Of a stretch of DNA of 64,000 nucleotides, positions 2,333-42,783 are shown piece after piece (the stretch's first letter is position 1; the number at the start of each line of letters is the position of its first letter). A program made the translations under genes and the position numbers. The DNA comes from Stegostoma tigrinum (lineage: Eukaryota), in assembly GCF_030684315.1 (NCBI RefSeq), contig NC_081372.1:51308987-51372986 (forward strand). Reading direction: 5' to 3'. The notes beneath the pieces were generated by a model. It was not told the DNA's origin. It made no database searches and saw only the letters and a list, made by a program, of their open reading frames with translations.

Positions 2333-3974
2333 CTTCTTTATTGAAGCGAAAATAGACTCAACTGTCAATCTTTTCCCTCGGTGTATACCTGAGGATTTCT
2401 AGTCTCATCCTCATAAAACCTGGTAGCACGATCTCCAGTGCCACTTCAACCCTTTTTATGAAATGATGAAAGTAACTGCATGTGACAGATGATGCAGATG
2501 AAACAAATTTCAATACATGTTTGACAGTTGCTAGTTTTGCTGGAAACGTTTCTTGCACCAAATGTTTCTGTATTTCTACCTCAATTCAGGTTTGAAGAAA
2601 TTGTGTTGGACCCAGGCACAAACACCGTTTACATGTCTCTAAAGATGGTGCTAAACACGGTGAGATTTGTACTCTATGTACTCAGTGTACTCTATTTTCT
2701 TTCCTTTTTAATATTTGTTTAGCTAGAGGCACACCTGGCTGAGGCTCATTTTGGTTTATTTGTTTACTTTCTTGCACCACATCAATTTCCTTTGACCCCT
2801 GAGGACTGACTCGTCCGCCATCAGTTTTCCCTGTAACCCACTGCATCACAGATCTTTCTTTTGTACGAAAGATGGCCGGGTGGAGAACTAAATTGACAGG
2901 CCTCTGAAATGTGCAAGATTAAAGAATGAAGGCCCCCATTGAAAACCCAGCACAGGAAATGCTTTTGGAATTTTCATGTTTACATCACGCTACGAGATTT
3001 CTTCACCTCCCCAGACCAAGTCCCAGATTCTGTGAGTGCCTGCCTTGAGGTAAGAATTTTCCTCCAAGCAGTCTGGTCTTGAGCTGGGTGCAATTCCACC
3101 CTTGGCCAACTGTCTGCGTGGAATTTGCACATTCTCCCTGCGTGTACATGGGTTTACTCTGGCTACTGCATTTACTTCCCGTAGACCAAAGATGAGCCTG
3201 TTAGTGAACAAACCATGCTTAATTGCCCATGGTATCTTGGGGAGGGTAGACTAGATGAATAAGCCATGGGAAATGCATGGTTACAAGGATAGAGGAGAGT
3301 GAGGGATGCTCTTTGGAGGGTTGGTGTGGACTTGATGGACTAAGTAGACTGTTTCCACAATGTAAGGATTCTATGATAAAATGTAATGGTGCGATGGTTT
3401 ACTCATAACAATCATTTCAGTGAACTGTCACCAACTGCAGCTTGTTGTGCTCTAGACTGTGCTGTGATTCAGTGTGAAGCATTCTTGTGTGTGAATTCAA
3501 ATTTGTAGTTTCCAATCTGGCATTGACAGCAGCTGATTAATGTGTAGTGAATGGCAGTGATAATGTTGAACTTTAAGATAATTTGTCATTTGGATGACAG
3601 CCGTCATCTGTGGATCCTGGGATATGATTTGAAAGGAGAGCCGGAGAGGCCAATATTTATTCCTCATATTATCACAAAAGTGGCTTGTCTACGAATGTAG
3701 AATTTGCTGTGTGCAGGTTGTTGACGAAGTATTCTTCATGAAGTGTTGAATATCCTTTGAAAATACTTCAGTATTTATACGACTATCGAGATATGCTGTG
3801 TTCATGAAAGATGTGCCATGTCAAGAAAATGGTTTTGCTGTCAATATATAGAAACTGCTTTTTCACTTTCTCATTTGATTTTGTTGCCTGCTGGAAATAG
3901 AGGGTAAATATCCAGAGAATCCCTGTCACTCACAAGTGAAATGCAACAACTGGGTGGAAAAAATTGGCATTAAC

Positions 3975-3980
3975 TTTATT
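3975..3980 (-). terminator. Candidate polyadenylation signal AATAAA
   Basis: Lies ~280 nt after the stop codon. It is conserved at 29612-17, 34676-81, 56210-15 and 61274-79, and at 895-900 in the A-type. It is mutated in D-type pseudogenes and deleted in copy 3. Confidence 0.5.
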
Positions 3981-4260
3981 AGGAAATGGTTTTGAATAAA
4001 TTGTGCAGCGTTCCAGGCTGAGAGGAAAATCACTGAACATTTCATACATATGCGTTTGCTTCTTCCTCACAAAGAGAGAATTAGAGCAGCTATGAAGCTC
4101 TTTGCTATATATGTACCTCCAGTCCTGTCAATCAGATTTTGAATTCTTTGCAATCATTGAGTGTATTTCAGATGTCTAGGCAGTTGATCGGAGAAGGGTG
4201 ACGACACACAGGTCATGAAATTGTTGTATCACAGTTGGTTGCTGAGCGATGTTGGCTGTT

Positions 4261-7032
4261 TTACTGGTCATTCTTCAACAACTTCGACCATGCTGTATGT
4301 GGTGGAAGACATTTGATTGAAAGCAGACATAGTTTAAATACTCAATAATAAACCCACACAATATTGATAATTTTTAAAAATTTGCACATACCATCAAAGT
4401 CAAGTTTGCCATCACTGTTCTTGTCCCACTCCCTGATGAGTTCATGAACTTCCTCCTCTGTAACATGCTCCCCAGAAGTCTTGAATGTAAAATACAGCTC
4501 AGAACATTCGATGAAGCCGTCAGCATTGCTAGAGTCATCAAGAAAAGTATGAAAGTCCCCAATCCAGCAATGTTATCTACCTTACCAAAATAGAAGTTGA
4601 GAAAAGATCATATCCATCTAATTTCACTTTCTTTCTGTCTGGAAGTTTACATTATTTAATCTCATCAAGTAATCCAATTTAAAAACTGGCGTACAACAAA
4701 TCTAGATATCATGCACAAACACATGTGGAAATAGCTTCATAAACCTCACATTTGAACTCACCTTTTTCATCCAAAAATGATACATTTCCCACACAATGTC
4801 TCAAATTTCTCAAGACCTGAATTCAATAGTGTGCCCTCTGCTCTGAAAGCAATTACAAATAATTTGTCATTATCACCTTCGATTATGTTCAATTGGAAAT
4901 GGCTTCCCTTTCATTCCAAAGATAAAATTGAATCACACTTTCTGCTCTTCCACAATTGTGTTCGTGACCGTTTTGTTTTCTGAAATCTTCTGTTGATATT
5001 CTCTACTTATGTTCTCCATCGCGTTTTACGTGGATAAGTGTGTTGCTGACAACGACTGCATTGTTGTCCATGCCTAATTGCACTTGAATGGAGTTGCTTG
5101 TTCAGTAATTTCAGAGTGCAGTTACAAATCAGACAGCGTTCCACTGGTCTGGATATATATTCAGGCCAGCAAGGTAAGGATGGCAGATTGTCTTCCTTGA
5201 AGGAGACAAGTGAACCACATAGGTTTTCACAACAACCTCTCAGACTTTTCACTATCATCAACGACATCAGTTTTATGCTGCAGATGTATTGATTGAGTTT
5301 TCTATTTCACTAGCTCACCGGATGAGATTTGAAAGTTTGTTCTTGGAGCATCAGCAGGATCCACTGGCTCACTCGTCTGGGACATTTCCATTATGCTACT
5401 GTCTCCCTGAAGTGAAAACATGCTGTCTATCCACATTTTCAAAACATCTGTGAGTATTGCAACTATCTATGGATCACTGTTTAGTCTTTTTTGTTGAAGG
5501 GAAAATAGTCTCAACTGTTAATACTTTCCTGATGTGTGAAGCTGAGGATTTTTAGTCTCAACCTGGTAAATCCTCAAAGAACTGTCTCCAGGCAACTCTT
5601 ATATCTTTTCGTATAAGATCATGAAAGGTGCACCATGTCACATGCAATGTAAATGAAACAAATTTCCATACATTTTTGCCAGTTGCGAGTCCCGCTAGAA
5701 ATGTTCTAGGAACAAATGTTTCCACACTTCTACCTCACTTTGGATATGAAGAAGTTATATTGAGCTGAAAACACACTTTTTTTTTCTTCTCTAGATAGAT
5801 GGTGTTAAAGCGAGTGACATTAATGATTCTCATTATTATTTCATATTTTCAGCTTCTGAAGTATTTTGTATAATTGATATACGTGCTTGCTACTTTGGTT
5901 TATTTACATGAAGCAAAAGCTAAATTCACCTTTGTGTCAACATATCAGGTGGCTGCTATTTCATCAGAGAGAGATGATTGGTGGTGACTTCGACCAGAGG
6001 GTCACTGTGACTGAGTTGAGTGTTGAGGGGAGTCATTCACGGTAACCTGAGGTGGTGTAGGAATTAAACCCACACTATTGTTTATGCTCTCCCTTGCAAA
6101 CCAGCTAACCAGGCAACTGGGCTAATCAGCCCCGTACCCTACATTTCCTTGAAGCAGGGATGTTTTTCTGATTGCTTTGCTGATCTTTTAGAAACTTGTC
6201 ACTTTTTCAATACATACAACGGAGAATCAACAAACTCAAAATAGAATTGCTGCGCTATCATGTTTACACCAGTCATGTAGAAGCTTAAACTCACCCATCA
6301 AATACACGAAACGATTCTGCGATGTCTTTGTCAGACTTTCCTTTCACTTCTTCTCTCATCAGCCTCCCCGCCATCTTCACCAAGAACTCTTCAAAATCAA
6401 TGGTGCCGCTACCTAAGACCACACTCAGTTGTAAGCTCTGTCCATTGTTAAACATGAATATTTGTGAACCAAACGATTTTTGAAGTGAAACTGCTAATGT
6501 TTAAGCTGCATGTTACCATTTTTGAGACCAATTGCAATCTGAGATTTGACTATCTTTGGGACACCCAAGATATCAGTCAAACATGAAATGAAGTAAACTG
6601 TTGCGTACTAAATCGTGCAGATATGAAATCATTTACAATTAGATTTAGAATTTTATTTATCATGTGTACTCAAGTACAGTATTACAAGAGTACAGTGAAA
6701 ATGCACAACATTGCCACGCATGTCCCATTTCTGGATCAAAGGTACTTGCGCCCAAAAAATATACGTACAAATTAGTAACTGAAAAAGAGTTAAAAAGTTA
6801 AGCATTACCTTCAGATAGCAAGTAGAAAAATAAAGAATAAAGGTCATAGTTAAGATTACAGTTCTTCTTAATTTAGTCTAGAAAGTAGAACAGCTTTTTT
6901 ACCTCCAGTATTTTTCTTATCTGCTCCAGAAGGAATCGTCGAAGAAATAACTTCACAGAGTAAAATTAGACACAACACAATTTGGATTCTCCTGTACATT
7001 GGAATGATCAAACACACAAACTGGAAGACCAT
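4261..7032 (-). CDS. Putative secreted troponin-C-derived EF-hand protein, copy 2 (intact 4-exon model, 138 aa)
   Basis: Exons 7032-6903, 6412-6295, 4528-4392 and 4292-4261, all GT-AG with phases 1/2/1. Product: [138 protein letters not shown]. The last three exons match TNNC2 exons 4-6 ([39 protein letters not shown] / NADGYID..GEHVTDEEI..DKNNDGRIDFD / EFLKMMEGVQ). TATA at 7201-7195, AATAAA at 3980-3975. Linkage of exon 1 is inferred. Confidence 0.72.
5947..6133 (-). mobile_element. Old tRNA-derived SINE in intron 2
   Basis: The minus strand reads GGGCTGATTAGCCCAGTTG (A box)...GTGGGTTTAATTCC (B box)...CAGGTTACC...GTGACCCTC...CACCACCAATCATCTCTCTCT, resembling a common shark SINE. Copies start near 10164, 15116, 26914, 31586, 36652, 41703, 53512, 58184 and 63249. 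Confidence 0.6.
6640..6868 (-). repeat. Probable interspersed-repeat remnant in intron 1
   Basis: TTAGATTTAGA..TCATGTGTACTCAAGTACAG..GTACAGTGAAAA..GTAGAAAAATAAAGAATAAA..AACATTACAG resembles a shark LINE-tail-like repeat. It is present in every full unit. Recognised from memory only. Confidence 0.35.
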
Positions 7033-7194
7033 TTTGCCAAACACTTCAACGCAGCTGGTAAGAATGTCCCTGTGCTTTCTTTGATTTGTCATTTTAATTG
7101 CCCATGATGCTCTCTGGCTGACATTGACTTGGCCTGCTGCACTGTTCCAAGGAAGGTCAATGTGACAAACTGTGCCTTGTCTGTCAATAAAGCA

Positions 7195-7201
7195 TTTTAT
7201 A
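7195..7201 (-). promoter_or_regulatory. TATA box (TATAAAA) of the repeated gene
   Basis: GCTATAAAATGC on the minus strand, ~165 nt upstream of the AAAATGG start. It is invariant in all 9 copies that include this region (also 11408-14, 16359-65, 28158-64, 32831-37, 37896-902, 42946-52, 54756-62, 59429-35). Confidence 0.6.
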
Positions 7202-7809
7202 GCTGCATGGGCTGCAACTTTTCATTCCATTTCACAGAGTGCTACATTTTGTTTCCAAATCTTACCTTTTGAATGTTTGTTCAGTAAAGGTGCTCACCTG
7301 CTTCAGGCACATTTTGGTTTATTTGTTTGATTTCTTGCCCCAAATCAATTTGCTTTAGCCCCAGAAGACCGACTCTTCTGTCATCAATTTTCCCTGTCTT
7401 CCATTGCATCACAGATCTTTCTTTTGCACAAAAGATGGCCGGGTAAAGAACTAAAATGACATGCCTCTGAAATCTGCAAGATGAAAGAATGAAAGCCCCC
7501 ATTGAAAACCCAGCACAGCAATTGCGTTTGGAATTTTCATGATTCCGTCACCCTGTGAGACTTCTTCACCTCCCCGTGCCAACTTCCAGATTCTGTGAGT
7601 GCCTGCCTCGAGATAAGAATTTTCCTCCAAGCAGTTTGGTCTTGATATCTGTCCAGCACATAGATACATATATAGCAAGGTACGATCACCTGGACGTGCC
7701 TACGATTCACGTGTGACTGTTTTGGTTGAATATCTTGAGCCACTGCCATCCATTTAGTGCAAGTCAGCTCACAATGTCTGCATGGAGGGAATACCGGGTA
7801 TGTGAAACA

Positions 7810-8464: not shown

Positions 8465-11245
8465 TTACTGGTCATTCTTCAACAACTTCGACCATTCTGT
8501 AAAGGGTGGAAGACATTTGATTGAAAGCAGACATCGTTTAAATACTCAATAATAAACCCACACAATATTGATAATTTTTAAAAATTTGCACATACCATCC
8601 AAGTCAAGTTTGCCATCAGTGTTCTTGTCCCACTCCCTGATGAGTTCATGAGCTTCCTCCTCTGTAACATGCTCCCCAGCAGTCATGATGGCCAAATGCA
8701 GCTCAGAACAATCGATGAAGCCGTCAGCATTGCTAGAGTCATCAAGAAAAGTATGAAAGTCCCCAATCCAGCAATGTTATCTACCTTACCAAAATAGAAG
8801 TTGAGAAAAGATCATATCCATCTAATTTCACTTTCTTTCTGTCTGGAAGTTTACATTATTTAATCTCATCAAGTAATCCAATTTAAAAACTGGCGTACAA
8901 CAAATCTAGATATCATGCACGAACACATGTGGAAATAGCTTCATAAACCTCACACTTGAACTCACCTGTGTCATCCAAAAATGATACAGTTCCCACACAA
9001 TATCTCAAATTTCTCAAGACCTGAATTCAATAGTGTGCCCTCTGCTCTGAAAGCAATTACAAATAATTTGTCATTATCACCTTCAATTATGTTCAACTGG
9101 AAATGGCTTCCCTTTCATTCAAATGATAATATTGAATCACACTTTCTGCTCTTCCACAATTTTGTTCGTGGCAGTTTTGTTTTCTGAAAATCTTCTGTTG
9201 ATATTCTCTACTTATGTTCTCCATCGCCTTTTACATGGATAAGTGTGTTGCTGACAAGGACTGCATTGTTGTCCATGCCTAATTGCACTTGAATGGAGTT
9301 GTTTGTTCAGTAATTTCAGAGTGCAGTTACAAATCAGACAGCGTTCCACTGGTCTGGATATATATTCAGGCCAGCAAGGTAAGGATGGCAGATTGTCTTC
9401 CTTGAAGGAGACAAGTGAACCACATAGGTTTTCACAACAACCTCTCAGACTTTTCACTATCATCAACGACATCAGTTTTATGCTGCAGATGTATTGATTG
9501 AGTTTTCTATTTCACTAGCTCACCGGATGAGATTTGAAAGTTTGTTCTTGGAGCATCAGCAGGATCCACTCGCTCACTAGTCTGGGACATTTCCATTATG
9601 CTACTGTCTCCCTGAAGTGAAAACATGCTGTCTATCCACATTTTCAAAACATCTGTGAGTATTGCAACTATCTATGGATCACCCTTTAGACTTTTTTGTT
9701 GAAGGGAAAATAGTCTCAACTGTTAATACTTTCCTGATGTGTGAAGCTGAGGATTTTTAGCCTCAACCTGGTAAATCCTCAAAGAACTGTCTCCAGGCAA
9801 CTCTTATAGTACAAAATCTTTTAGTATAAAATCATGAAAGGTGCACCATGTCACATGCAATGTAAATGAAACAAATTTCAATCCATGTTTGACAGTTGCG
9901 AGTCCTGCTGGAAGTGTTCTAGGAACAAATGTTTCCACACTTCTACCTCACTTTGGATATGAAGAAGTTATACTGAGGTGAAGACACAGACTCTTTTTTT
10001 TTCTTCTCTATATAGATGGTGTTAAAGCGAGTGGCATTAATGATTCTCATTATTATTTCATATTTTCAGCTTCTGAAGTATTTTGTATAATTGATATACT
10101 TGTTTGCTACAATGGTTTATTTACATGAACTAAAAGGTAAATTGACCTTTGTGTCAACATTTCAGGTGGCTGCTATTTCATTAGCGAGAAATGATTGGTG
10201 GTGACTTCGACCAGAGGGTCACTGTGACTGAGTTGAGTGTTGAGGGGAGTCATTCACGGTAACCTGAGGTGGTGTAGGAATTAAACCCACACTATTGTCT
10301 ATGCTCTCCCTTGCAAACCAGCTAAACAGGCAACAGAGCTAATCGTCCCCGTACCCTACATTTCCTTGAAGCAGGGATGTTTTTCTGATTGCTTTGCGGA
10401 TCTTTTAGAAACTTGTCTCTTTTTCAATGCAAACAACGGAGAATCAACAAACTCAAAATAGAATTGTTGCTCTATCATGTTTATACCAGTCATGTAGAAG
10501 CTCAAACTCACCCATCAAATACATGAATGAATTTTGCGATGTCTTTATCAGACTTCCCTTTCACTTCTTCTCTCATCTGCCTCGCCATTGTCACCAAGAA
10601 CTCTTCAAAATCAATGGTGCCGCTACTTAAGACCACACTCAGTTGTAAGCTCTGTCCATTGTTAAACATGAATATTTGTGAACCAAACGATTTTTGAAGT
10701 GAAACTGCTAATGTTTTTGCTGCATGTTACCCTTTTTGAGACCAATTGCAATCTGAGATTTGACTATCTTTGGGACACCCAAGATATCAGTCAAATGTGA
10801 AATGGAGTAAACTGTTGCGTACTAAATCGTGAAGATATGAAATAATTTACAATTAGATGTAAAATTTTTTTATCATGTGTACTCAAGTACAGTATTACAG
10901 GTGTACAGTGAAAATGTACAACATTGCCACGCATGTCCCATTTCTGGATCAAAGGTAGTTGCGCCCAAAAAATGTCGGTACAAAATAGTAACTGTAAAAG
11001 AGTTAAAAAGTTAAGCATTACCTTCAGATAGCAAGTAGAAAAATAAAGAATAAAGGTCATAGTTAACATTACAGTTCTTCTTAATTTAGTCTAGAAAGTA
11101 GAACAGCTTTTTTACCTCCAGTGTTTTTCTTATCTGCTCCAGAAGGAATCGTCGAAGAAATAACTTCACAGATTAAAATTACACACGACACAATTTAAAT
11201 TCTGCTGTACATTGGAACGATCAAACACACAAACTGGAAGACCAT
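8465..11245 (-). pseudogene. Troponin-C-derived gene copy 3, multiply disabled
   Basis: Exons 11245-11116 (nonsense ATT TAA after MYSRI), 10626-10512 (acceptor TTAG changed to TTAA), 8732-8596 and 8496-8465. About 860 nt of 3' region, including the AATAAA, is deleted directly after the stop. There is also a ~90 nt promoter deletion at ~11445. Confidence 0.8.
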
Positions 11246-13433: not shown

Positions 13434-16196
13434 TTACTGGACATTCTGCAACAACTTAGACCATTCTGAAAAGTTTGGAAGATATTTGATTGAAAACCTA
13501 AATAGTTTAAATACTCAATACTAAACCAACACAATATCGCTAATTTTTAAAAAATTTGCACATACCATCAAAATCAAGATTGCATCACTGTTCTTGTCCC
13601 ACTCGCTGATGAATTCATGAAATTCCTCCTCGGTAACATGCTCCCCAGCCTCCTCGATGACAATATTCAGCTCATCACGATCAATGAGACTGTCAGCATT
13701 GCTAGAGTCATCAAGAAAAGTGTGAATGTCACAATCCAGCAATGTTTTCTACATTACCAAAATAGAAATAGTGAAAAGATCATATTCATCTAATTTCAGT
13801 TTCTTTCTGTCTGGAAATTTACATTGTTTAATCTCATCAAGTAATCCATTTTAATCACTGGCTTACAACAAATCGAGATATGTTGTACAATCATCTGAGG
13901 AAACAGCTTCATACAGCTTAGGTCTAAACTCACCTGTTCCATCCAAAAATGATATATTTCCCACACAATGTCTCAAATTTCTCAAGGCCTGAATTGCACC
14001 GTGTGCCCTCTGCTCTGAAAGCAATTACAAAATATTTGTCATTATAGCCTTTGACTCTCTGAGTTGGAACTAGCTTCCCTTTCATTCCAGTGACAATAAT
14101 GAATCACACTTGCTGTGTCCACAATTTGGTTCATGACAGTTTTCTTCTGAAAATCTTCGATTGATTTTCTCTTCTTATGTTCTCCATCACTTTTTACGTG
14201 GATAAGTGTGTTGCTGACAAGGACTGCATTGTTGTCCATGCCTAATTGCTCTTTAATGGGGTTGCTTGTTCAGTAATTTCAGAGTGCAGTTACAAATCAG
14301 ACAACGTTCCACTGGTCTGGATATATATTCCGGCCAGCAAGGTAAGGATGGCAGATTGTCTTCCTTGAAAGAGACAAGTGAACCACATAGGTTTTCACAA
14401 CAATCAATAACACTTGTCACGATCATCACCACATCACTTTTATGCTGCAGATGTATTGATTGAGTTTACTATATCACTAGCTCACAGGATGAGATTTAAA
14501 AGTTTGTTTCTGGAGCATCAGCAGGCTCCACTGGCTCGCTAGCCCGGGACGTTTCCACTGTGCTACTATCTCCCTGAAGTGAGAACATGCTGTCTGTCAA
14601 AGTTGTCAAAACATCTGTGAGTATTGCATATATCTATGGATCACTCTTTAGTCTTCTTTGTTGAAGGGACAATAGACTCAACTGTTAATACTTTCCTGAT
14701 GTGTGAAGCTGAGGATTTTTAGTCTCAACCTGGTCAATCCTCAAAGAACTGTCTCCAGGCAACTCTGATATCTTTTAGTATAAAATCATGAAAGGTGCAC
14801 CATGTCACATGCAATGTAAATGAAACAAATTTCAATACATGTTTGCCAGTTGCGAGTCCTGCTAGGAATGTTCTAGGAACAAATGTTTCCACACTTCTAC
14901 CTCACTTTGGATATGAAGAAATTATATTGAGCTGAAAACACAGACTCTTTTTTGCTTCTCTAGGTAGATGGTGTTAAAGCGAGTGACATTAATGATTCTC
15001 ATTATTATTTCATCTTTTCAGCTTCTGCAGTATTTTGTATCATTGACATACTCGTTTGCTGCAACGGTTTACTTACATGAAGCAAAAGGTAAAGTCACCT
15101 TTGTGTCAACATATCAGGTGGCTGCTATTTCATTAGAGAGAGATGATTGGTGGTGAGTTCGACCAGACGGTCACTGTGACTGAGTTGAGAGTTGAGGGGT
15201 GTCATTCACGGTAACTTGAGCTGGTGTAGGAATTAAACCCACACTATTGTGTATGCTCTCCCTTGCAAACCAGTTAACCAGGGAACTGAGCTAATCGGTC
15301 CCGTACCCTACATTTCCTTGAAGCAGGGATGTTTTTCTGATTGCTTTGCTGATCTTTTAGAAACTTGTCTCTTTTTCAATACATACAACGGAGAATCAAC
15401 AAACTCAAAATAGAATTGCTGCGCTATCATGTTTATACCAGTCATGTAGAATCTCAAACTCACCCATCAAATACGCGAAAGAATTCTGCGATGTCTTTGT
15501 CAGACATCCTTTCACTTCTTCTCTCATTTGACTCGCCATCGTCACTAAGAACTCTTCAAAATCAATGGTGCCGCTACCTAAGACCACACTCAGTTGTAAG
15601 CTCTGTCCATTGTTAAACATGAATATTTGTGAACCAAACGATTTTTGAAGTGAAACTGCTAATGTTTAAGCTGCATGTTACCCTTTTTGAGACCAATTGC
15701 AATCTGAGAATTGACTATCTTTGGGACACCCAAGATATCAGGCAAACGTGAAATGAAGTAAACTGTTGCGTACTAAATCGTGAAGATATGAAATAATTTA
15801 CAATTAGATTTAGAATTTTTTTATCATGTGTACTCAAGTACAGTATTACAGGAGTACAGTGAAAATGTACAACATTGCCACGCATGTCCCATTTCTTGAT
15901 AAAAGGTACTTGCGCCCAAAAAATGTAGGTACAAATTAGTAACTGAAAAAGAGTTAAAAAGTTGTGCGTTACCTTCAGATAGCAAGTAGAAAAATAAAGA
16001 ATAAAGATCATAGTTAACATTACAGTTCTTCTTAATTTAGTCTAGAAAGTAGAACAGCTTTTTTACCTCCAGTATTTTTCTTCTCTGCTCCAGAAGGATT
16101 CGTCGAAGAAATAACTTCACAGAGTAAAGTTACGCACAACACAATTTGGATTCTGCTGTACATTGGAACGATCAAACGCACAAACTGGAAGACCAT
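13434..16196 (-). pseudogene. Troponin-C-derived gene copy 4 (D-type), frameshifted
   Basis: Exons 16196-16067, 15577-15464 (114 nt, -1 frameshift at VKG), 13701-13566 (136 nt, -1 frameshift after DKNSD) and 13465-13434 (EWSKLLQNVQ*). ORF-track peptides 15405-15620 and 13521-13742 show the EF-hand fragments running out of frame. Confidence 0.82.
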
Positions 16197-18883: not shown

Positions 18884-19146
18884 TTATTGGGTCTTCTCCA
18901 TCATCTTCACCCATTCTGTAGACAGAGGAAGGTATATGATTCTTTTAAATACTCAATACTAAACCAATATAGTATCACTAATGAATTTGTTTTTATTATT
19001 TGGACATACAACAAACATCAAGTTTCCCATCATTGTTCTTGTCCGATTGTTTCATGAATTCATGAATTTCCTCCTCTGCAAAATGTTTCCCAATAGCATT
19101 GATGACAACATTCAGCTCATGACGATCGATGAAACCATCAGCATTG
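18884..19146 (-). pseudogene. Headless troponin-C-derived cassette, copy 5 (A-type)
   Basis: Exons 19146-19010 and 18915-18884 match copy 1. Upstream exons and TATA are deleted (junction ~20620-20635). The junction T|AA is a stop. Confidence 0.8.
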
Positions 19147-26394: not shown

Positions 26395-29300
26395 TTTTGT
26401 GCTCCTTGGCCTGCTGTGTTCATCCAGCCTCACATTTTATTATCTTGGAATGCTCCAGCATCTGCAGTTCCCATTATCTCTGTTAATACTTTCCTGCTGT
26501 GTGAAGCTGAGGATTTTTAGCCTCAACCTGGTAAATCCTCAAAGAACTGTCTCCAGGCGACTCTTATATCTTTTCGTATAAGATCATGAAAGGTGCACCA
26601 TGTCACATGCAATGTAAATGAAACCAATTTCAACACATGTTTGCCAGTTGCGAGTCCCGCTAGAAATGTTCTAGGAACAAATGTTTCCACACTTCTACCT
26701 CACTTTGGATATGACGAAGTTATATTGAGCTGAAAACACAGACTCTTTTTCACTTCTCTGGATAGATGGTGTTAAAGCGAGTGACATTAATGATTCTCAT
26801 TATTATTTCATCTTTTCAGCTTCTGAAGTATTTTGTATAATTGATATACTTATTTGCTACAATGGTTTATTTACATGAACCAAAAGGCAAAATCACCTTT
26901 GTGTCAACATATCAGGTGGCTGCTACTTCATTAGAGAGAGATGATTGGTGGTGACTTCGACCAGAGGGTCACTGTGACTGAGTTGAGTGTTGAGGGGAGT
27001 CATTCACGGTAACCTGAGGTGGTGTAGGAATTAAACCCACACTATTGTTTATGCTCTCCCTTGCAAAGTAGCTAAACAGGCAACTTAGCTAGTCGGCCCC
27101 GTACCCTACATTTCCTTGAAGCAGGGATGTTTTTCTGATTGCTTTGCTGATCTTTTAGGAACTTGTCACTTTTTCAATACATACAATGGAGAATCAACAA
27201 ACTCAAAATAGAATTGCTGCGCTATCATGTTTATATCAGTCATGTAGAATCTCAAACTCACCCATCAAGTACACAAAAGAATTCTGCGATGTCTTTGTCA
27301 GACTTTCCTTTCACTTCTTCTCTCATCTGCCTCGCCAACGTCACCAAGAACTCTTCAAAATCAATGGTGCCGCGACCGAAGACCACACTCTATTGTGAGC
27401 TCTGTCCATTGTTAAACATGAATATTTGTGAACCAAACAATTTTTGAAGAGAAACTGCAAATGTTTTAGCTGCATGTTACCCTTTTTGAGACCAATTGCA
27501 ATCTGAGATTTGACTATCTTTGGGACACCCAAGATATCAGTCAAATGTGAAATGCAGAAAACTGTTGCGTACTAAATCGTGAAGATATGAAATAATTTAC
27601 AATTAGATTTAGAATTTTTTTATCATGTGTACTCAAGTACAGTATTACAAGAGTACAGTGAAAATGTACAACATTGCCATGCGTGTCCCATCTCTGGATC
27701 AAAGGTAGTTGCGCCCAAAAAATGTAGGTACAAATTAGTAACTGAAAAAGAGTTAAAAAGTTAAGCATTACCTTCAGATAGCAAGTAGAAAAATAAAGAA
27801 TAAAGGTCATAGTTAACATTACAGATCTTCTTAATTTAGTCTAGAAAGTAGAACAGCTTTTTAACCTCCAGTATTTTTCTTATCTGCTCCAGAAGGAATC
27901 GTCGAAGAAATAACTTCACAGAGTAAAATTAGACACAACACAATTTGGATTCTGCTGTACATTGGAACGATCAAACGCACAAACTGGAAGACCATTTTGC
28001 CGAACACTTCAACGCAACTGGTAAGAATGTCCCTGTGCTTTCTTTGACGTGTCACTTAAATTGCCCATGATGCTCTCTGGCTGACATTGACTTGGCCTGC
28101 TGCACTGTTCCAAGGAAGGTCAAGGTAACAAACTGTGCCTTGTCTTTCAATAAGGCATTTTATAGCTGCATGGGTTCCAACTGTTCATTCCATTTCACAG
28201 AGTGCTCCATTTTGTTTCCAAATCTTTCGTTTTGAATGCTTGTTCAGTGAAGGTGCACACCTGCTTCAGGCACATTTTGGTTTATTTGTTTGCTTTCTTG
28301 CCCCAAATCAATTTGCTTTGGCCCCAGAAGACCGACTCTTCTGTCATCAATTTTGCCTGTCTTCCATTGCATCACAGATCTTTCTTTTGCACGAAAGATG
28401 GCCGGGTGGAGAACTAAAATGACAGGCCTCTGAAATCTGCAAGATGAAAGAATGAAGGACCCCATTGAAAGCCCAGCACAGCACTTCCAGGTGGTAATGT
28501 TCATGGGATAAGCATATTTTTTCGCCAGAACCTTGGTGAATTTCTGTGTTGCATCTTGTAAATGGTGCTGAATGTATTGTTGCACTACTTGATCCTTGAT
28601 TTCATTTTTGTGTCTCATACTTGAAATTGTGTGAGGCAATTGCCATCTCATTTTGTCTATAACACTAACTGTTGCACAGTGGATCAGTGTTTGGTACTGC
28701 TTCCTCACAGTGACAGAGAGCTGGGTGCAATTCCACCCTTGGCCAACTGTCTGCGTGGAATTTGCACATTCTCCCTTCGTGTACATGGCTTTACTCTGGC
28801 TACTGCCTTTACTTCCCGTAGACCAAAGATGAGCCTGTTAGTGAACAAACCATGCTTAATTGCCCATGGTATCTTGGGGAGGGTAGACTAGATGAATAAG
28901 CCATGGGAGATGCATGGTTACAAGGATAGAGGAGAGTGAGGGATGCTCTTTGGAGGGTTGGTGTGGACTTGATGGACTAAATAGACTGTTTCCACAGTGT
29001 AAGGATTCTATGATAAAACGTAATGGTGCAATGGTTTACTCAGAACAATCATTTCAGTGAACTGTCACCAAGTGCAGCTTGTTGTGCTATAGACTGTGCT
29101 GTGATTCAGTGTGAAGCATTCTTGTGTGTGAATTCAAATTTGTAGTTTCCAATCTGACACTGACAGCAGCTGATTAATGTGCAGTGAATGGCAGTGATAA
29201 TGTTGCACTTTAAGATAATTTGTCATTTGGATGACAGCCGTCATCTGTGTATCCTGGGATATGATTTGAAAGGAGAGCTGGAGAGGCCAATATTTATACT

Positions 29301-29897: not shown

Positions 29898-32668
29898 TTA
29901 CTGGTCATTCTTCAACAACTTTGACCATTCTGTAAAGGGTGGAAGACATTTGATTGAAAGCAGACATAGTTTAAATACTCAGTAATAAACCCACACAATA
30001 TCGCTAATTTTTAAACATTTGCACATACCATCCAAGTCAAGTTTGCCATCAGTGTTCTTGTCCCACTCCCTGATGAGTTCATGAGCTTCCTCCTCTGTAA
30101 CATGCTCCCCAGCAGCCATGATGGCAATATGCAGCTCAGAACAATCGATGAAGCCGTCAGCATGGCTAGAGTCATCAAGAAAAGTATGAAAGTCCCCAAT
30201 CCAGCAATGTTATCTACCTTACCAAAATAGAAGTTGAGAAAAGATCATATCCATCTAATTTCACTTTCTTTCTGTCTGGAAGTTTACATTATTTAATCTC
30301 ATCAGGTAATCCAATTTAAAAACTGGCTTATAACAAATCTAGATGTCATGCACGAACACATGTGGAAATAGCTTCATAAACCTCACACTTGAACTCACCT
30401 TTTTCATCCAAAAATGATACAGTTCGCACACAATGTCTCAAATTTCTCAAGACCTGAATTCAATAGTGTGCCCTCTGCTCTGAAAGCAATTACAAATAAT
30501 TTGACATTATCACCTTGAATTAAGTTCAATTGGTAATGGCTTCCCTTTCATTCCAATGATAATATTGAATCACACTTTGTGCTCTTCCACAATTTTGTTC
30601 GTGACAGTTTTGTTTTCTGAAAATCTTCTGTTGATATTCTCTACTTATGTTCTCCATCGCGTTTTACGTGGATAAGTGTGTTGCTGACAACGACTGCATT
30701 GTTGTCCATGCCTAATTGCACTTGAATGGAGTTGCTTGTTCAGTAATTTCAGAGTGCAGTTACAAATCAGACAGTGTTCCACTGGTCTGGATATATATTC
30801 AGGCCAGCAAGGTAAGGATGGCAGATTGTCTTCCTTGAAGGAGACAAGTGAACCACATAGGTTTTCACAACAACCTCTCAGACTTTTCACTATCATCAAC
30901 GACATCAGTTTTATGCTGCAGATGTATTGATTGAGTTTTCTATTTCACTAGCTCACCGGATGAGATTTGAAAGTTTGTTCTTGGAGCATCAGCAGGATCC
31001 ACTGGCTCACTCGTCTGGGACATTTCCATTATGCTACTATCTCCCTGAAGTGAAAACATGCTGTCTATCCACATTTTCAAAACATCTGTGAGTATTGCAA
31101 CTATCTATGGATCACCGTTTCGTCTTCTTTGTTGAAGGAAAAATACTCTCAACTGTTAATACTTTCCTGCTGTGTGAAGCTGAGGATTTTTAGCCTCAAC
31201 CTGGTAAATCCTCAAAGAACTGTCTCCAGGCGACTCTTATATCTTTTCGTATAAGATCATGAAAGGTGCACCATGTCACATGCAATGTAAATGAAACAAA
31301 TTTCAACACATGTTTGCCAGTTGCGAGTCCCGCTAGAAATGTTCTAGGAACAAATGTTTCCACACTTCTACCTCACTTTGGATATGACGAAGTTATATTG
31401 AGCTGAAAACACAGACTCTTTTTCACTTCTCTAGATAGATGGTGTTAAAGCGAGTGACATTAATGATTCTCATTATTATTTCATCTTTTCAGCTTCTGAA
31501 GTATTTTGTATAATTGATATACTTATTTGCTACAATGGTTTATTTACATGAACCAAAAGGCAAAATCACCTTTGTGTCAACATATCAGGTGGCTGCTACT
31601 TCATTAGAGAGAGATGATTGGTGGTGACTTCGACCAGAGGGTCACTGTGACTGAGTTGAGTGTTGAGGGGAGTCATTCATGGTAACCTGAGGTGGTGTAG
31701 GAATTAAACCCACACTATTGTTTATGCTCTCCCTTGCAAAGTAGCTAAACAGGCAACTTAGCTAGTCGGCCCCGTACCCTACATTTCCTTGAAGCAGGGA
31801 TGTTTTTCTGATTGCTTTGCTGATCTTTTCGGAACTTGTCACTTTTTCAATACATACAATGGAGAATCAACAAACTCAAAATAGAATTGCTGCGCTATCA
31901 TGTTTATATCAGTCATGTAGAATCTCAAACTCACCTATCAAATACACGAAAGAATTCTGCGATGTCTTTGTCAGACTTTCCTTTCACTTCTTCTCTCATC
32001 TGCCTCGCCAACGTCACCAAGAACTCTTCAAAATCAATGGTGCCGCGACCTAAGACCACACTCAGTTGTAAGCTCTGTCCATTGTTAAACATGAATATTT
32101 GTGAACCAAACAATTTTTGAAGAGAAACTGCAAATGTTTTAGCTGCATGTTACCCTTTTTGAGACCAATTGCAATCTGAGATTTGACTATCTTTGGGACA
32201 CCCAAGATATCAGTCAAACGTGAAATGGAGAAAACTGTTGCGTACTAAATCGTGAAGATATGAAATAATTTACAATTAGATTTAGAATTTTTTTATCATG
32301 TGTACTCAAGTACAGTATTACAAGAGTACAGTGAAAATGTACAACATTGCCATGCGTGTCCCATTTCTGGATCAAACGTAGTTGTGCCCAAAAAATGTAG
32401 GTACAAATTAGTAACTGAAAAAGAGTTAAAAAGTTAAGCATTACCTTCAGATAGCAAGTAGAAAAATAAAGAATAAAGGTCATAGTTAACATTACAGATC
32501 TTCTTAATTTAGTCTAGAAAGTAGAACAGCTTTTTAACCTCCAGTATTTTTCTTATCTGCTCCAGAAGGAATCGTCGAAGAAATAACTTCACAGAGTAAA
32601 ATTAGACACAACACAATTTGGATTCTGCTGTACATTGGAACGATCAAACGCACAAACTGGAAGACCAT
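29898..32668 (-). CDS. Putative secreted troponin-C-derived EF-hand protein, copy 7 (open 4-exon model, 137 aa)
   Basis: Exons 32668-32539, 32049-31935, 30165-30029 and 29929-29898. Product: MVFQFVRLIVPMYSRIQIVLCLILLCEVISSTIPSGADKKNTG-GRGTIDFEEFLVTLARQMREEVKGKSDKDIAEFFRVFDS-HADGFIDCSELHIAIMAAGEHVTEEEAHELIREWDKNTDGKLDLD-EWSKLLKNDQ*. TATA at 32837-32831, AATAAA at 29617-29612. The exon-1 donor is weak (G|GTTAAA). Confidence 0.66.
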
Positions 32669-34961: not shown

Positions 34962-37733
34962 TTACTGGTCATTCTTCAACAACTTTGACCATTCTGTAAA
35001 GGGTGGAAGACATTTGATTGAAAGCAGACATAGTTTAAATACTCAGTAATAAACCCACACAATATCGCTAATTTTTAAACATTTGCACATACCATCCAAG
35101 TCAAGTTTGCCATCAGTGTTCTTGTCCCACTCCCTGATGAGTTCATGAATTTCCTCCTCTGTAACATGCTCCCCAGCAGCCATGATGGCAATATGCAGCT
35201 CAGAACAATCGATGAAGCCGTCAGCATGGCTAGAGTCATCAAGAAAAGTATGAAAGTCCCCAATCCAGCAATGTTATCTACCTTACCAAAATAGAAGTTG
35301 AGAAAAGATCATATCCATCTAATTTCACTTTCTTTCTGTCTGGAAGTTTACATTATTTAATCTCATCAGGTAATCCAATTTAAAAACTGGCTTATAACAA
35401 ATCTAGATGTCATGCACGAACACATGTGGAAATAGCTTCATAAACCTCACACTTGAACTCACCTTTTTCATCCAAAAATGATACAGTTCGCACACAATGT
35501 CTCAAATTTCTCAAGACCTGAATTCAATAGTGTGCCCTCTGCTCTGAAAGCAATTACAAATAATTTGACATTATCACCTTGAATTAAGTTCAATTGGTAA
35601 TGGCTTCCCTTTCATTCAAATGATAATATTGAATCACACTTTGTGCTCTTCCACAATTTTGTTCGTGACAGTTTTGTTTTCTGAAAATCTTCTGTTGATA
35701 TTCTCTACTTATGTTCTCCATCGCGTTTTACGTGGATAAGTGTGTTGCTGACAACGACTGCATTGTTGTCCATGCCTAATTGCACTTGAATGGAGTTGTT
35801 TGTTCAGTAATTTCAGAGTGCAGTTACAAATCAGACAGCGTTCCACTGGTCTGGATATATATTCAGGCCAGCAAGGTAAGGATGGCAGATTGTCTTCCTT
35901 GAAGGAGACAAGTGAACCACATAGGTTTTCACAACAACCTCTCAGACTTTTCACTATCATCAACGACATCAGTTTTATGCTGCAGATGTATTGATTGAGT
36001 TTTCTATTTCACTAGCTCACCGGATGAGATTTGAAAGTTTGTTCTTGGAGCATCAGCATGATCCACTGGCTCGCTAGTCTGAGACATTTCCATTATGCTA
36101 GTACCTCCCTGAAGTGAAAACATGCTGTCTATCCACATTTTCAAAACATCTGTGAGTATTGCAACTATCTATGGATCACCCTTTAGACTTTTTTGTTGAA
36201 GGGAAAATAGTCTCAACTGTTAATACTTTCCTGATGTGTGAAGCTGAGGATTTTTAGCCTCAACCTGGTAAATCCTCAAAGAACTGTCTCCAGGCAATTC
36301 TTATATCTTTCAGTATAAGATCATGAAAGGTGCACCATGTCACATGCAATGTAAATGAAACAAATTTCCATACATGTTTGCCAGTTGCGAGTCCTGCTAG
36401 AAGTGTTCTAGGAACAAATGTTTCCACACTTCTACCTCACTTTGGAGATGAAGAAGTTATACTGAGGTGAAAACACAGACTCTTTTTTTTCTTCTCTATA
36501 TAGATGGTGTTAAAGCAAGTGACATTAATGATTCTCATTATTATTTCATATTTTCAGCTTCTGAAGTATTTTGTATAATTGATATACTTGTTTGCTACAA
36601 TGGTTTATTTACATGAAGCAAAAGGTAAATTGACCTTTGTGTCAACATATCAGGTGGCTGCTATTTCATTAGCGAGAAATGATTGGTGGTGACTTCGACC
36701 AGAGGGTCACTGTGACTGAGTTGAGTGTTGAGGGGAGTCATGCACGGTAACCTGAGGTGGTGTAGGAATTAAACCCACACTATTGTTTATGCTCTGCCTT
36801 GCAAACCAGCTAACCAGGCAACAGAGCTAATCGGCCCCGTACCCTACATTTCCTTGAAGCACGGATGTTTTTCTGATTGCTTTGCTGATCTTTTAGAAAC
36901 TTGTCTCTTTTTCAATACATACAACGGAGAATCAACAAACTCTAAATAGAATTGTTGCTCTATCATGTTTCTACCAGTCATGTAGAAGCTCAAACTCACC
37001 CATCAAATACATGAATGAATTTTGCGATGTCTTTATCAGACTTTCCTTTCACTTCTTCTCTCATCTGCCTCGCCATCGTCACCAAGAACTCTTCAAAATC
37101 AATGGTGCCGCTACCTAAGACCACACTCAGTTGTAAGCTCTGTCCATTGTTAAACATGAATATTTGTGAACGAAACGATTTTTGAAGAGAAACTGCTCAT
37201 GTTTTAGCTGCATGTTACCCTTTTTGAGACCAATTGCAATCTGAGATTTGACTATCTTTGGGACACCCAAGATATCAGTCAAATGTGAAATGGAGTAAAC
37301 TGTTGCGTACTAAATCGTGAAGATATGAAATAATTTACAATTAGATGTAGAATTTTTTTATCATGTGTACTCAAGTACAGTATTACAGGCGTACAGTGAA
37401 AATGTACAACATTGCCACGCATGTCCCATTTCTGGATCAAAGGTAGTTGCGCCCAAAAAATGTCGGTACAAAATAGTAACTGTAAAAGAATTAAAAAGTT
37501 AAGCATTACCTTCAGATAGCAAGTAGAAAAATAAAGAATAAAGATCATAGTTAACATTACAGTTCTTCTTAATTTAGTCTAGAAAGTAGAACAGCTTTTT
37601 TACCTCCAGTATTTTTCTTACCTGCTCCAGAAGGAATCGTCAAAGAAATAACTTCACAGAGTAAAATTACACACGACACAATTTGAATTCTCCTGTACTT
37701 TGGAACGATCAAACACACAAACTGGAAGACCAT
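34962..37733 (-). CDS. Putative secreted troponin-C-derived EF-hand protein, copy 8 (open 4-exon model, 137 aa)
   Basis: Exons 37733-37604, 37114-37000, 35229-35093 and 34993-34962. Product: MVFQFVCLIVPKYRRIQIVSCVILLCEVISLTIPSGAGKKNTG-GSGTIDFEEFLVTMARQMREEVKGKSDKDIAKFIHVFDG-HADGFIDCSELHIAIMAAGEHVTEEEIHELIREWDKNTDGKLDLD-EWSKLLKNDQ*. All junctions GT-AG. TATA at 37902-37896, AATAAA at 34681-34676. Confidence 0.68.
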
Positions 37734-40020: not shown

Positions 40021-42783
40021 TTACTGGACATTCTACAACAACTTCGACCATTCTGAAAAGTTTGGAAGATATTTGATTGAAAACCTAAATAGTTTAAATA
40101 CTCAATACTAAACCAACACAATATCGCTAATTTTTAAAAAATTTGCACATACCATCAAAATCAAGATTGCATCACTGTTCTTGTCCCACTCGCTGATGAA
40201 TTCATGAAATTCCTCCTCGGTAACATGCTCCCCAGCCTCCTCGATGACAATATTCAGCTCATCACGATCAATGAGACTGTCAGCATTGCTAGAGTCATCA
40301 AGAAAAGTGTGAATGTCACAATCCAGCAATGTTTTCTACATTACCAAAATAGAAATAGTGAAAAGATCATATTCATCTAATTTCAGTTTCTTTCTGTCTG
40401 GAAATTTACATTGTTTAATCTCATCAAGTAATCCATTTTAATCACTGGCTTACAACAAATCGAGATATGTTGTACAATCATCTGAGGAAACAGCTTCATA
40501 CAGCTTAGGTCTAAACTCACCTGTTCCATCCAAAAATGATATATTTCCCACACAATGTCTCAAATTTCTCAAGGCCTGAATTGCACCGTGTGCCCTCTGC
40601 TCTGAAAGCAATTACAAAATATTTGTCATTATAGCCTTTGACTCTCTGAGTTGGAACTAGCTTCCCTTTCATTCCAGTGACAATAATGAATCACACTTGC
40701 TGTGTCCACAATTTGGTTCATGACAGTTTTCTTCTGAAAATCTTCGATTGATTTTCTCTTCTTATGTTCTCCATCACTTTTTACGTGGATAAGTGTGTTG
40801 CTGACAAGGACTGCATTGTTGTCCATGCCTAATTGCTCTTTAATGGGGTTGCTTGTTCAGTAATTTCAGAGTGCAGTTACAAATCAGACAACGTTCCACT
40901 GGTCTGGATATATATTCCGGCCAGCAAGGTAAGGATGGCAGATTGTCTTCCTTGAAAGAGACAAGTGAACCACATAGGTTTTCACAACAATCAATAACAC
41001 TTGTCACGATCATCACCACATCACTTTTATGCTGCAGATGTATTGATTGAGTTTACTATATCACTAGCTCACAGGATGAGATTTAAAAGTTTGTTTCTGG
41101 AGCATCAGCAGGCTCCACTGGCTCGCTAGCCCGGGACGTTTCCACTGTGCTACTATCTCCCTGAAGTGAGAACATGCTGTCTGTCAAAGTTGTCAAAACA
41201 TCTGTGAGTATTGCATATATCTATGGATCACTCTTTAGTCTTCTTTGTTGAAGGGACAATAGACTCAACTGTTAATACTTTCCTGATGTGTGAAGCTGAG
41301 GATTTTTAGTCTCAACCTGGTCAATCCTCAAAGAACTGTCTCCAGGCAACTCTGATATCTTTTAGTATAAAATCATGAAAGGTGCACCATGTCACATGCA
41401 ATGTAAATGAAACAAATTTCAATACATGTTTGCCAGTTGCGAGTCCTGCTAGGAATGTTCTAGGAACAAATGTTTCCACACTTCTACCTCACTTTGGATA
41501 TGAAGAAATTATATTGAGCTGAAAACACAGACTCTTTTTTGCTTCTCTAGGTAGATGGTGTTAAAGCGAGTGACATTAATGATTCTCATTATTATTTCAT
41601 CTTTTCAGCTTCTGCAGTATTTTGTATCATTGACATACTCGTTTGCTGCAACGGTTTACTTACATGAAGCAAAAGGTAAAGTCACCTTTGTGTCAACATA
41701 TCAGGTGGCTGCTATTTCATTAGAGAGAGATGATTGGTGGTGAGTTCGACCAGACGGTCACTGTGACTGAGTTGAGAGTTGAGGGGTGTCATTCACGGTA
41801 ACTTGAGCTGGTGTAGGAATTAAACCCACACTATTGTGTATGCTCTCCCTTGCAAACCAGTTAACCAGGGAACTGAGCTAATCGGTCCCGTACCCTACAT
41901 TTCCTTGAAGCAGGGATGTTTTTCTGATTGCTTTGCTGATCTTTTAGAAACTTGTCTCTTTTTCAATACATACAACGGAGAATCAACAAACTCAAAATAG
42001 AATTGCTGCGCTATCATGTTTATACCAGTCATGTAGAATCTCAAACTCACCCATCAAATACGCGAAAGAATTCTGCGATGTCTTTGTCAGACATCCTTTC
42101 ACTTCTTCTCTCATTTGACTCGCCATCGTCACTAAGAACTCTTCAAAATCAATGGTGCCGCTACCTAAGACCACACTCAGTTGTAAGCTCTGTCCATTGT
42201 TAAACATGAATATTTGTGAACCAAACGATTTTTGAAGTGAAACTGCTAATGTTTAAGCTGCATGTTACCCTTTTTGAGACCAATTGCAATCTGAGAATTG
42301 ACTATCTTTGGGACACCCAAGATATCAGGCAAACGTGAAATGAAGTAAACTGTTGCGTACTAAATCGTGAAGATATGAAATAATTTACAATTAGATTTAG
42401 AATTTTTTTATCATGTGTACTCAAGTACAGTATTACAGGAGTACAGTGAAAATGTACAACATTGCCACGCATGTCCCATTTCTTGATAAAAGGTACTTGC
42501 GCCCAAAAAATGTAGGTACAAATTAGTAACTGAAAAAGAGTTAAAAAGTTGTGCGTTACCTTCAGATAGCAAGTAGAAAAATAAAGAATAAAGATCATAG
42601 TTAACATTACAGTTCTTCTTAATTTAGTCTAGAAAGTAGAACAGCTTTTTTACCTCCAGTATTTTTCTTCTCTGCTCCAGAAGGATTCGTCGAAGAAATA
42701 ACTTCACAGAGTAAAGTTACGCACAACACAATTTGGATTCTGCTGTACATTGGAACGATCAAACGCACAAACTGGAAGACCAT
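40021..42783 (-). pseudogene. Troponin-C-derived gene copy 9 (D-type), frameshifted
   Basis: Duplicate of copy 4 with exons 42783-42654, 42164-42051, 40288-40153 and 40052-40021. It has the same two -1 frameshifts plus an extra TAG in the last exon. Confidence 0.82.

What the first reader, a model, noticed from the sequence alone, without database searches (positions are those of the whole stretch)
6903..7201. Exon-shuffling origin: a TATA plus signal-peptide exon grafted in phase 1 onto troponin C exon 4
The leader has a basic n-region (YRR/YSR), a hydrophobic core ([11 protein letters not shown]), a small-residue c-region ([10 protein letters not shown]) and a polar linker. It ends ACT GGA G|GTAAAA, exactly phase 1 as the following AG|GT AGC GGC exon requires. 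Its frame has no indels in 9 copies and is broken only in copy 3, which is independently dead. No TNNC exon 2/3-like sequence (EFKAAFDMFD..IIEEVDED) is visible in any unit. This suggests capture of a promoter and first exon from an unrelated secreted-protein gene, or de novo exonisation.
Basis: partly seen in the sequence, partly recalled or inferred. Interest (0 to 1): 0.8.

Follow-up and report, generated by a model that had tools for sequence, protein, structure and literature searches.

The report
Retroelement-born leader on shark half-troponins
In a carpet shark, tandem partial copies of the fast-muscle troponin C gene appear to have built a new first exon, which reads like a secretion signal, out of a dead retrotransposon read backwards plus the gene's own intron; evolution has kept that reading frame open, but no RNA yet shows it is used.

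Summary
The features are in the sequence, but the leader was not captured from another gene. The true TNNC2 lies on the same contig about 445 kb away. The leader maps into its intron 2: the TATA, the ATGs and codons 1-18 are the antisense strand of a decayed Penelope-like GIY-YIG element (profile hits 18 of 18 unrelated copies), and codons 19-43 plus the donor are intron flank. The repeated unit starts inside intron 2, so exons 1-2 were left behind. Older copies and a bamboo-shark RefSeq model place the same gap-free 43-codon leader before exon 3; exon 3 (phase 1-1) was lost later. Exons 4-5 show no stops (8 expected) although dN/dS is near 1. Best reading: a birth-and-death family of C-lobe-only troponin C proteins with a newly born signal-like leader. 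No RNA run was available, so splicing, start site and secretion are untested.

The parts
6978..7426 (+). Decayed Penelope-like element remnant (GIY-YIG C-terminal part about 6978-7215, then 3' tail), lying antisense to the troponin unit
   Evidence: 72% to the parent intron 2 copy C23:51818206-51818630; DNA alignment to a young element scores 91 versus shuffles 37.9+/-6.7, opposite strand 35; leader profile positions 2-226/239 hit 18 of 18 unrelated element loci at E 1e-10 to 1e-11
7195..7201 (-). TATAAAA, candidate TATA box, inside the antisense retroelement; use as a promoter untested
   Evidence: the parent's intronic copy also reads TATAAAA
7090..7092 (-). Upstream in-frame ATG; GTG in 4 of 9 window copies and followed by an early stop in older copies, so not the conserved start
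6903..7032 (-). Candidate new coding exon part, 43 codons + 1 nt ([43 protein letters not shown]): codons 1-18 from antisense retroelement, 19-43 from TNNC2 intron 2 flank
   Evidence: RefSeq models P0001-P0004 use it
6884..6978 (-). TNNC2 intron 2 flank carrying the h/c-region codons and the donor G|GTAAAA (GT at 6902-6901)
   Evidence: 76% to parent C23:51819511-51819605, where the frame has a TAA and the donor-like G|GTAAAG pre-exists
6413..6902 (-). Fused remnant of introns 2 and 3; the deletion that removed exon 3 joins at about 6519/6495
   Evidence: 6611-6519 = parent 51819630-51819720 and 6495 onward = parent 51820096 onward
6295..6412 (-). TNNC2 exon 4 homologue (orphan half of site II, central linker, first helix of the C-lobe)
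   Evidence: best solved-structure hits are skeletal troponin C, E 1e-12, for the 31937-32047 copy
4392..4528 (-). TNNC2 exon 5 homologue (EF-hand loops III and IV)
4261..4292 (-). TNNC2 exon 6 homologue to the stop codon; poly(A)-type hexamer at about 3980
11116..11245 (-). Leader copy with TAA; unit dead (exon 4 acceptor lost)
16067..16196 (-). Leader copy, open; unit dead (1-nt deletions in exons 4 and 5)
27866..27995 (-). Leader copy, open, donor GTTAAA; exon 4 acceptor TCG and a 3-kb retroelement in the next intron
32539..32668 (-). Leader copy, open, donor GTTAAA; unit otherwise intact
37604..37733 (-). Leader copy, open, third ATG changed to AAG, extra in-phase donor CAG|GTAAGA 18 nt upstream; unit intact
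42654..42783 (-). Leader copy identical to 16067-16196; unit dead
54464..54593 (-). Leader copy identical to 27866-27995; acceptor TCG
59137..59266 (-). Leader copy identical to 32539-32668; unit otherwise intact

Best explanation
SHOWN: a segment of TNNC2 beginning inside intron 2 was duplicated, leaving the promoter and exons 1-2 behind. That segment held a decayed Penelope-like insertion whose antisense arm abuts intron sequence ending in a cryptic phase-1 donor. SHOWN as a statistical pattern: the frame from ATG 7032 to that donor, and the frames of exons 4-5, have been kept open far more often than neutral decay allows. INFERRED: the antisense retroelement supplies the start codon (and perhaps the TATA), the stretch is spliced as a new first coding exon, first to exon 3 (as in the bamboo-shark model) and, after loss of the symmetric 144-nt exon 3, to exon 4. 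The product is a 137-138 aa protein: a hydrophobic leader plus the troponin C C-lobe with EF-hand loops III and IV. The family then expanded by birth and death to at least 26 copies, 14 intact. INFERRED, weaker: the leader acts as a signal peptide (YRR, nine apolar residues, V-x-S at 28-30) or membrane anchor, turning a cytosolic muscle Ca2+ sensor into a secreted or membrane-bound Ca2+/Mg2+-binding protein with fast-changing surfaces. Origin part about 0.95; translated exon about 0.6; secretory targeting given translation about 0.6.
For: Parent gene with exons 2-6 at C23:51817180-51822873. Retroelement identity. Exon 3 retained between leader and exon 4 in 4 older copies. Chiloscyllium plagiosum RefSeq model XP_043542666.1 has the same 43-residue leader without gaps (60% identical), joined to exon 3; the two families split before the K-Pg boundary according to PMC8529718 (passages). 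In 23 distinct rows of the 26 exon-3-less copies: 0 indel events in 130 leader columns against 26 in 858 flanking non-coding columns; leader disruptions (stop, frameshift, ATG, GT) 1 observed versus 11.6 expected, and 0 versus 7.0 on branches with no young descendant, P about 0.001. Stops over leader + exons 4 + 5: 1 observed versus 11.2 expected, P 1.7e-4. Leader frame open in 21 of 23 rows; best of 546 overlapping non-coding window-frames 19 of 23. Leader dN below dS in 14 of 15 pairs. No charged, Pro, Asn, Gln or stop in codons 18-26 in any clade copy. EF-loop positions hold 1.6 residues per column versus 2.5 elsewhere.
Against: dN/dS does not differ from 1 in any region: leader 0.69, exon 4 0.89, exon 5 1.38. 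EF-loop invariance is not significant (6 of 12 versus 20 of 82, P 0.085), and h-region retention only borderline (P 0.035-0.13). 12 of 26 copies are broken, and all 4 exon-3-retaining zebra-shark copies are wrecked. Donors are weak (GTAAAA, GTTAAA). Three ATGs lie between the TATA and ATG 7032, two opening short uORFs, and one intact older copy has a 460-bp insertion between the TATA and the ATG. RefSeq models are inconsistent (an intact copy is modelled without the leader, P0007; some borrow the next unit's exon 6, P0001 and P0004), which looks like prediction rather than transcript support. No other shark model with the leader was found. The leader region was picked because it is open in young copies, the expected counts use tree lengths and a simple substitution model, and gene conversion between copies makes trees differ by region. 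AT-rich intronic DNA readily encodes apolar residues.
Confidence: 0.58

Rival explanations
1. The array is a set of dead 5'-truncated TNNC2 duplicates; the leader is plain intron 2 DNA whose open, hydrophobic frame is an inherited accident.
For: dN/dS near 1 everywhere; 12 of 26 copies broken; all elements (TATA, ATG, donor) pre-exist in the parent intron; weak donors and uORFs.
Against: 1 stop where 11.2 are expected and none in about 200 substitutions of exons 4-5; 0 leader disruptions versus 7.0 expected on branches not ascertained; gap-free leader in a second shark family; breaks cluster on short terminal branches.
Confidence: 0.2
2. The exon 4-6 genes are alive, but the leader stretch is promoter or 5' UTR under non-coding constraint, and translation starts elsewhere (an ATG in intron 3 read into exon 4, or a Met in exon 4), giving a cytosolic C-lobe protein.
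For: The stop-codon deficit is strongest in exons 4-5 (0 versus 8.1); leader dN/dS 0.69 is not significant; RefSeq has leaderless models P0006-P0008 and P0012; a regulatory element would also be short of indels and substitutions (leader tree length 0.58 versus 0.73).
Against: Constraint is frame-specific: 21 of 23 rows open in the leader frame versus 0, 0, 1, 15 and 0 in the other five; ATG 7032 and a phase-1 GT are kept in 26 of 26 copies, and the alternative donor 18 nt upstream keeps the phase; exon 4 acceptor AG kept in 22 of 26.
Confidence: 0.19
3. One reading: promoter and signal-peptide exon captured from an unrelated secreted-protein gene.
For: Only the look of the peptide and the phase match.
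Against: Both halves are found in TNNC2 intron 2 and the 5' half is a retroelement read backwards; 29 of 29 protein matches and 37 of 39 DNA matches lie in the TNNC2 cluster, the other two being short weak hits; Pfam gives nothing above cut-off.
Confidence: 0.03

Closest known systems
Fast skeletal troponin C (TNNC2)
   Same: Exons 4-6, their splice phases and introns descend from it; EF-hand loops III and IV keep the D-x-N/H-x-D-G and D-K-N-x-D-G patterns.
   Different: No exons 1-3, hence no regulatory N-lobe; new hydrophobic N-terminus; at least 26 tandem copies changing at near-neutral amino-acid rate, whereas vertebrates are described as having two TnC gene groups (PMC9825255, passages).
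RefSeq 'troponin C, skeletal muscle-like' models of Stegostoma tigrinum (XP_059508620-637, 821-824, XP_048405882, XP_048406468) and Chiloscyllium plagiosum (XP_043542666.1)
   Same: These automatic models already join this leader to exon 4 (zebra shark) or exon 3 (bamboo shark).
   Different: They carry only a generic name; their level of RNA support could not be seen; nothing on the leader's origin, selection or targeting.
Penelope-like elements (canonical C-terminal GIY-YIG)
   Same: The 5' half of the leader is a decayed GIY-YIG 3' end; older copies show a short forward arm next to the inverted arm, like the inverted insertions described in PMC8557442 (passages).
   Different: Here a fragment is read antisense as start codon and n-region of a host gene.
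Chimeric genes from partial duplication with exonised transposon or intron DNA (general class, recalled)
   Same: 5'-truncated duplicate recruits a new first exon from non-coding DNA.
   Different: The recruited exon looks like a secretion signal on a cytosolic muscle protein and was followed by loss of a symmetric exon and tandem expansion.
Calglandulin (snake venom-gland troponin C-like EF-hand protein; description recalled, search listing only)
   Same: Troponin C-like protein re-used outside muscle.
   Different: Not compared by sequence here; recalled as a four-EF-hand protein without such a leader.

Membership tests
TNNC2 (functional fast troponin C) | Descent from TNNC2 exons 4-6 with conserved intron phases | tested here: met
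TNNC2 (functional fast troponin C) | N-lobe with regulatory sites I and II (exons 2-3) | tested here: not met
   exon 3 deleted in window units; exon 2 only in the parent
TNNC2 (functional fast troponin C) | C-lobe EF-hand loops III and IV with ligand residues | tested here: met
   positions 1, 5 of both loops and 3, 6 of loop IV invariant in 11 rows; binding itself not assayed
Penelope-like element (origin of 6978-7426) | Homology to a GIY-YIG-bearing, high-copy retroelement ORF end | tested here: met
   young element ORF matches Pfam GIY-YIG at E 4e-4, 21 bits, just under the 22.6 cut-off; 198,128 first-look candidates in the genome; leader matches it antisense
Penelope-like element (origin of 6978-7426) | PLE-clade reverse transcriptase in the element | tested here: inconclusive
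   RT-like motifs are visible in the broken ORFs of the young copy (motif reading recalled) but Pfam gave no RT hit on the pieces; no RT phylogeny run
Signal peptide (Sec/SPase I) | Basic n-region, apolar h-region, small residues at -3/-1 | tested here: met
   YRR, 11-residue hydropathy 2.1-3.1 in clade copies, V-x-S at 28-30 with S30 invariant in 9 rows; rule recalled, no predictor available
Signal peptide (Sec/SPase I) | Located at the N-terminus of a translated product and directs ER import | not testable with these tools
   no RNA run listed; needs reporter or proteomics
Exon shuffling from an unrelated donor gene | A donor gene elsewhere carrying the same exon | tested here: not met
De novo exonisation | Exon derives from non-coding or transposon DNA of the parent locus | tested here: met
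De novo exonisation | Spliced into mRNA | not testable with these tools
   only DNA-like runs were available
De novo exonisation | Frame, start and splice site under purifying selection | tested here: met
   dN/dS alone inconclusive

The most novel reading that the evidence does not exclude
Carpet sharks have, for more than 66 million years, carried a secreted or membrane-anchored troponin C family whose signal peptide was born de novo, half from a Penelope retroelement read backwards and half from intron; in the zebra-shark line it shed the N-lobe and radiated into dozens of fast-changing two-EF-hand proteins, as extracellular recognition or Ca2+-handling proteins do.
Probability: 0.35. Interest if true: 0.78.

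Novelty: new variant of a known kind. Interest (0 to 1): 0.57.

Why it matters
If expressed, this is a gene birth with every intermediate still in one genome: the parent intron, duplicates with leader plus exon 3, and duplicates with leader joined to exon 4. It would show a targeting signal arising from antisense retroelement and intron DNA and moving one of the most conserved muscle proteins into the secretory pathway, and it makes the question of how signal peptides originate testable on a dated series. If not expressed, it is an ordinary decayed partial-duplicate array mis-modelled by annotation.

Tried and rejected
RNA: no RNA holder listed; the four runs laid (one sample) cover introns and exons alike, and none of the 15 joints shown (57 more not shown) is an exon junction, so they read as DNA and say nothing on expression. 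My first guess that the leader's 3' end is a decayed exon 2 was rejected: true exon 2 lies 2.3 kb further upstream in the parent and has no copy in the array. The profile search of 1.84 billion representatives was swamped by EF-hand proteins because the whole bamboo-shark protein entered the profile; of the 150 rows shown only P0056 covers the leader, so it is no test of absence. AlphaFold model of P0001 is low confidence (mean pLDDT 44) and was not searched. Atlas look-alikes for residues 1-43 scored 0.80 or less, lead level only; the whole protein returns EF-hand clusters. Substitutions could not be placed on individual branches, so expectations rest on tree lengths. No further troponin exon or leader copies in 367 kb of additional flanking and intervening DNA, and TNNC2 exon 1 was not located by a TATA/ATG-GT scan. 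Rows left out of the clade counts: the 4 exon-3-retaining copies, the copy at C23:51243738 (a different, larger deletion), the exon 5-6-only units and the parent; codon fits also dropped rows with a stop or frameshift and duplicates (12, 12 and 15 rows kept). Literature: no paper in the held library joined Stegostoma and TNNC2, zebra shark, genome and troponin, Penelope-like, shark and GIY-YIG, or all five exonisation terms; searches listed nothing on this locus by title or abstract start. Most subscription papers are not in that library. No earlier scan notes were found.
Full report
Setting. The window is G000:C23:51,308,987-51,372,986 of a 3.2-Gb genome. Protein records that match the array come from Stegostoma tigrinum on a contig of the same length as C23. 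The window is a tandem array of 4-5 kb units with a 26.6-kb higher-order repeat, 99.4% identical over 23.7 kb. Each full unit carries, on the minus strand, the leader and homologues of skeletal troponin C exons 4, 5 and 6.

Observation. TATAAAA (7201-7195), the open frame, the phase-1 end at 6903 and the GTAAAA donor are real. The leader is 130 nt from ATG 7032 to the donor in 9 of 9 window copies, with one stop, in the 11093 copy. But the copies are 93-96% identical to the query copy and hold 5 distinct sequences; 4 of 9 have the donor GTTAAA and GTG for ATG 7092; 1 of 9 lacks ATG 6999; and 5 of 9 units are dead. The only start codon kept throughout is ATG 7032.

Origin of the leader. An intact TNNC2 lies on the plus strand of the same contig, exon 2 at 51,817,180 to exon 6 at 51,822,873, about 445 kb beyond the window. 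Window 6978-6884 matches its intron 2 at 76% (51,819,511-605); there the frame holds a TAA and the donor-like G|GTAAAG is already present. Window 7426-6988 matches another part of the same intron at 72% in the opposite orientation. That part is a decayed retroelement: a young copy in this window (about 23,427-26,480) has an ORF with a GIY-YIG match just under Pfam's cut-off and 198,128 first-look candidates genome-wide; the plus strand of the leader aligns to it with score 91 against 37.9+/-6.7 for shuffles, the minus strand 35; and a profile of the leader hits 18 of 18 unrelated element loci antisense over positions 2-226/239. The junction falls at about 6978. So the TATA, all three ATGs and the n-region are antisense retroelement, and the hydrophobic core, c-region and donor are host intron. 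Older copies show a 110-nt forward arm beside the inverted arm, the kind of inverted structure described for Penelope-like insertions (PMC8557442, passages); whether the parent lost the inverted arm or the duplicates gained it is not resolved. No donor gene exists elsewhere: 29 of 29 protein matches and 37 of 39 DNA matches are in this cluster (lower bounds).

Order of events. Exon 2 occurs only in the parent, and the oldest copies begin about 750 nt downstream of it, so the duplicated unit lacked the promoter and exons 1-2. Four older copies keep exon 3 between leader and exon 4, and all four are now broken. A Chiloscyllium plagiosum RefSeq model (XP_043542666.1) has the same 43-residue leader, without gaps and 60% identical, joined to exon 3; the families split before the K-Pg boundary (PMC8529718, passages). 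The window's units lost exon 3 by a deletion of parent 51,819,721-51,820,095. Exon 3 is 144 nt and phase 1-1, so the same donor fits exon 4. The phase match is therefore inherited from a leader-exon 3 join, not a graft onto exon 4.

Is it under selection? Across the cluster 26 copies share this deletion; 14 are intact from ATG 7032 to exon 6, including three old ones about 75-77% identical in the leader protein, and 12 are broken. In 23 distinct rows the leader has 0 indel events in 130 columns against 26 in 858 flanking non-coding columns. Exons 4 and 5 carry about 200 substitutions and no stop against 8.1 expected; with the leader, 1 against 11.2 (P 1.7e-4). The leader frame is open in 21 of 23 rows, the best of 546 overlapping non-coding window-frames in 19. 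Against this, dN/dS is 0.69, 0.89 and 1.38 for leader, exon 4 and exon 5, none different from 1; EF-loop and h-region retention are only suggestive; donors are weak; two uORFs follow the TATA; and gene conversion between copies limits tree-based expectations. Open frames with near-neutral amino-acid change fit a fast-evolving birth-and-death family (inference).

Expression. Untested. No RNA holder was listed and the runs laid behave as DNA. RefSeq models use the leader in some copies and not in others, and borrow a neighbour's exon 6, so I do not count them as transcript evidence.

Mechanism proposed. The new exon gives [31 protein letters not shown], with V-x-S at 28-30 and a polar linker, on a two-EF-hand C-lobe. 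By the recalled n/h/c rule this is a signal peptide, long if started at 7032; a membrane anchor is the alternative. The orphan half of site II drifts in old copies while loops III and IV persist. The most likely product is a secreted or membrane-bound Ca2+/Mg2+-binding protein of unknown tissue; a cytosolic C-lobe that competes for troponin I is the fallback. Shown: origin, order, frame retention. Inferred: splicing, translation, targeting, function.

Verdict. Capture from an unrelated gene: rejected (0.03). Dead array: 0.2. Live genes with a non-coding leader: 0.19. De novo coding leader under selection: 0.58. Mechanism class is known; this instance was not found in print in the searches, though automatic gene models exist. 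Papers: passages of PMC8557442, PMC9825255, PMC8529718 and PMC11406177 (the last not used) were read; others only as search listings; no supplements were opened. Interest 0.57.

Noticed in passing
window 13681-37400 versus 40268-64000: Higher-order repeat of 26.6 kb, 99.4% identical; a further near-identical repeat about 17.8 kb upstream of the window start (identical leader at C23:51298058). Very recent duplication or assembly redundancy; copy counts should be treated with care.
   Followed up: partly
window about 23427-26480 and 50014-53078: Young GC-rich Penelope-like insertion (broken RT-like and GIY-YIG ORFs, + strand) in the intron between exons 4 and 5 of the units whose exon 4 acceptor is lost; family has about 198,000 candidates in the genome.
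   Followed up: partly
window about 1064-1328, 18883-19147, 45470-45734: Leaderless units with only exons 5 and 6, from an older lineage, open frame; RefSeq models P0001 and P0004 splice to this exon 6 instead of the unit's own.
   Followed up: partly
G000:C23:51414627, 51449426, 51461561 (L017, L020, L021): Three old, intact, strongly diverged copies (site II remnant altered, extra cysteines near loop III); best candidates for expression tests.
   Followed up: partly
G000:C23:51255024, 51259901, 51265611, 51284354, 51346571, 51383301: A stronger donor (AG|GTAAGA) 18 nt upstream of the main one, same phase, in 6 of 26 copies; used by RefSeq models P0010 and P0011.
   Followed up: partly
G000:C23:51820300-51822600 (parent TNNC2): The residue at the exon 4/5 junction (loop III position 2) is Cys in this parent and Phe, Gln and Thr in whale, white and epaulette shark records; unusually variable for troponin C.
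   Followed up: no
G000:C23:51818640-51819500: An 860-nt stretch of parent intron 2 with no match in any duplicate or other fetched DNA; it separates the two halves of the leader in the parent.
   Followed up: partly
G000:C23:51373169 copy (starts at window end, 63592-63729): Stop codon of exon 6 lost, giving a 15-residue C-terminal extension in RefSeq model P0002.
   Followed up: no
window 3900-8500, runs X1-X4: One DNA-like sample holds the array with many differences from the window unit, including variants in exon 5, so the array exists outside this assembly's unit sequence.
   Followed up: no
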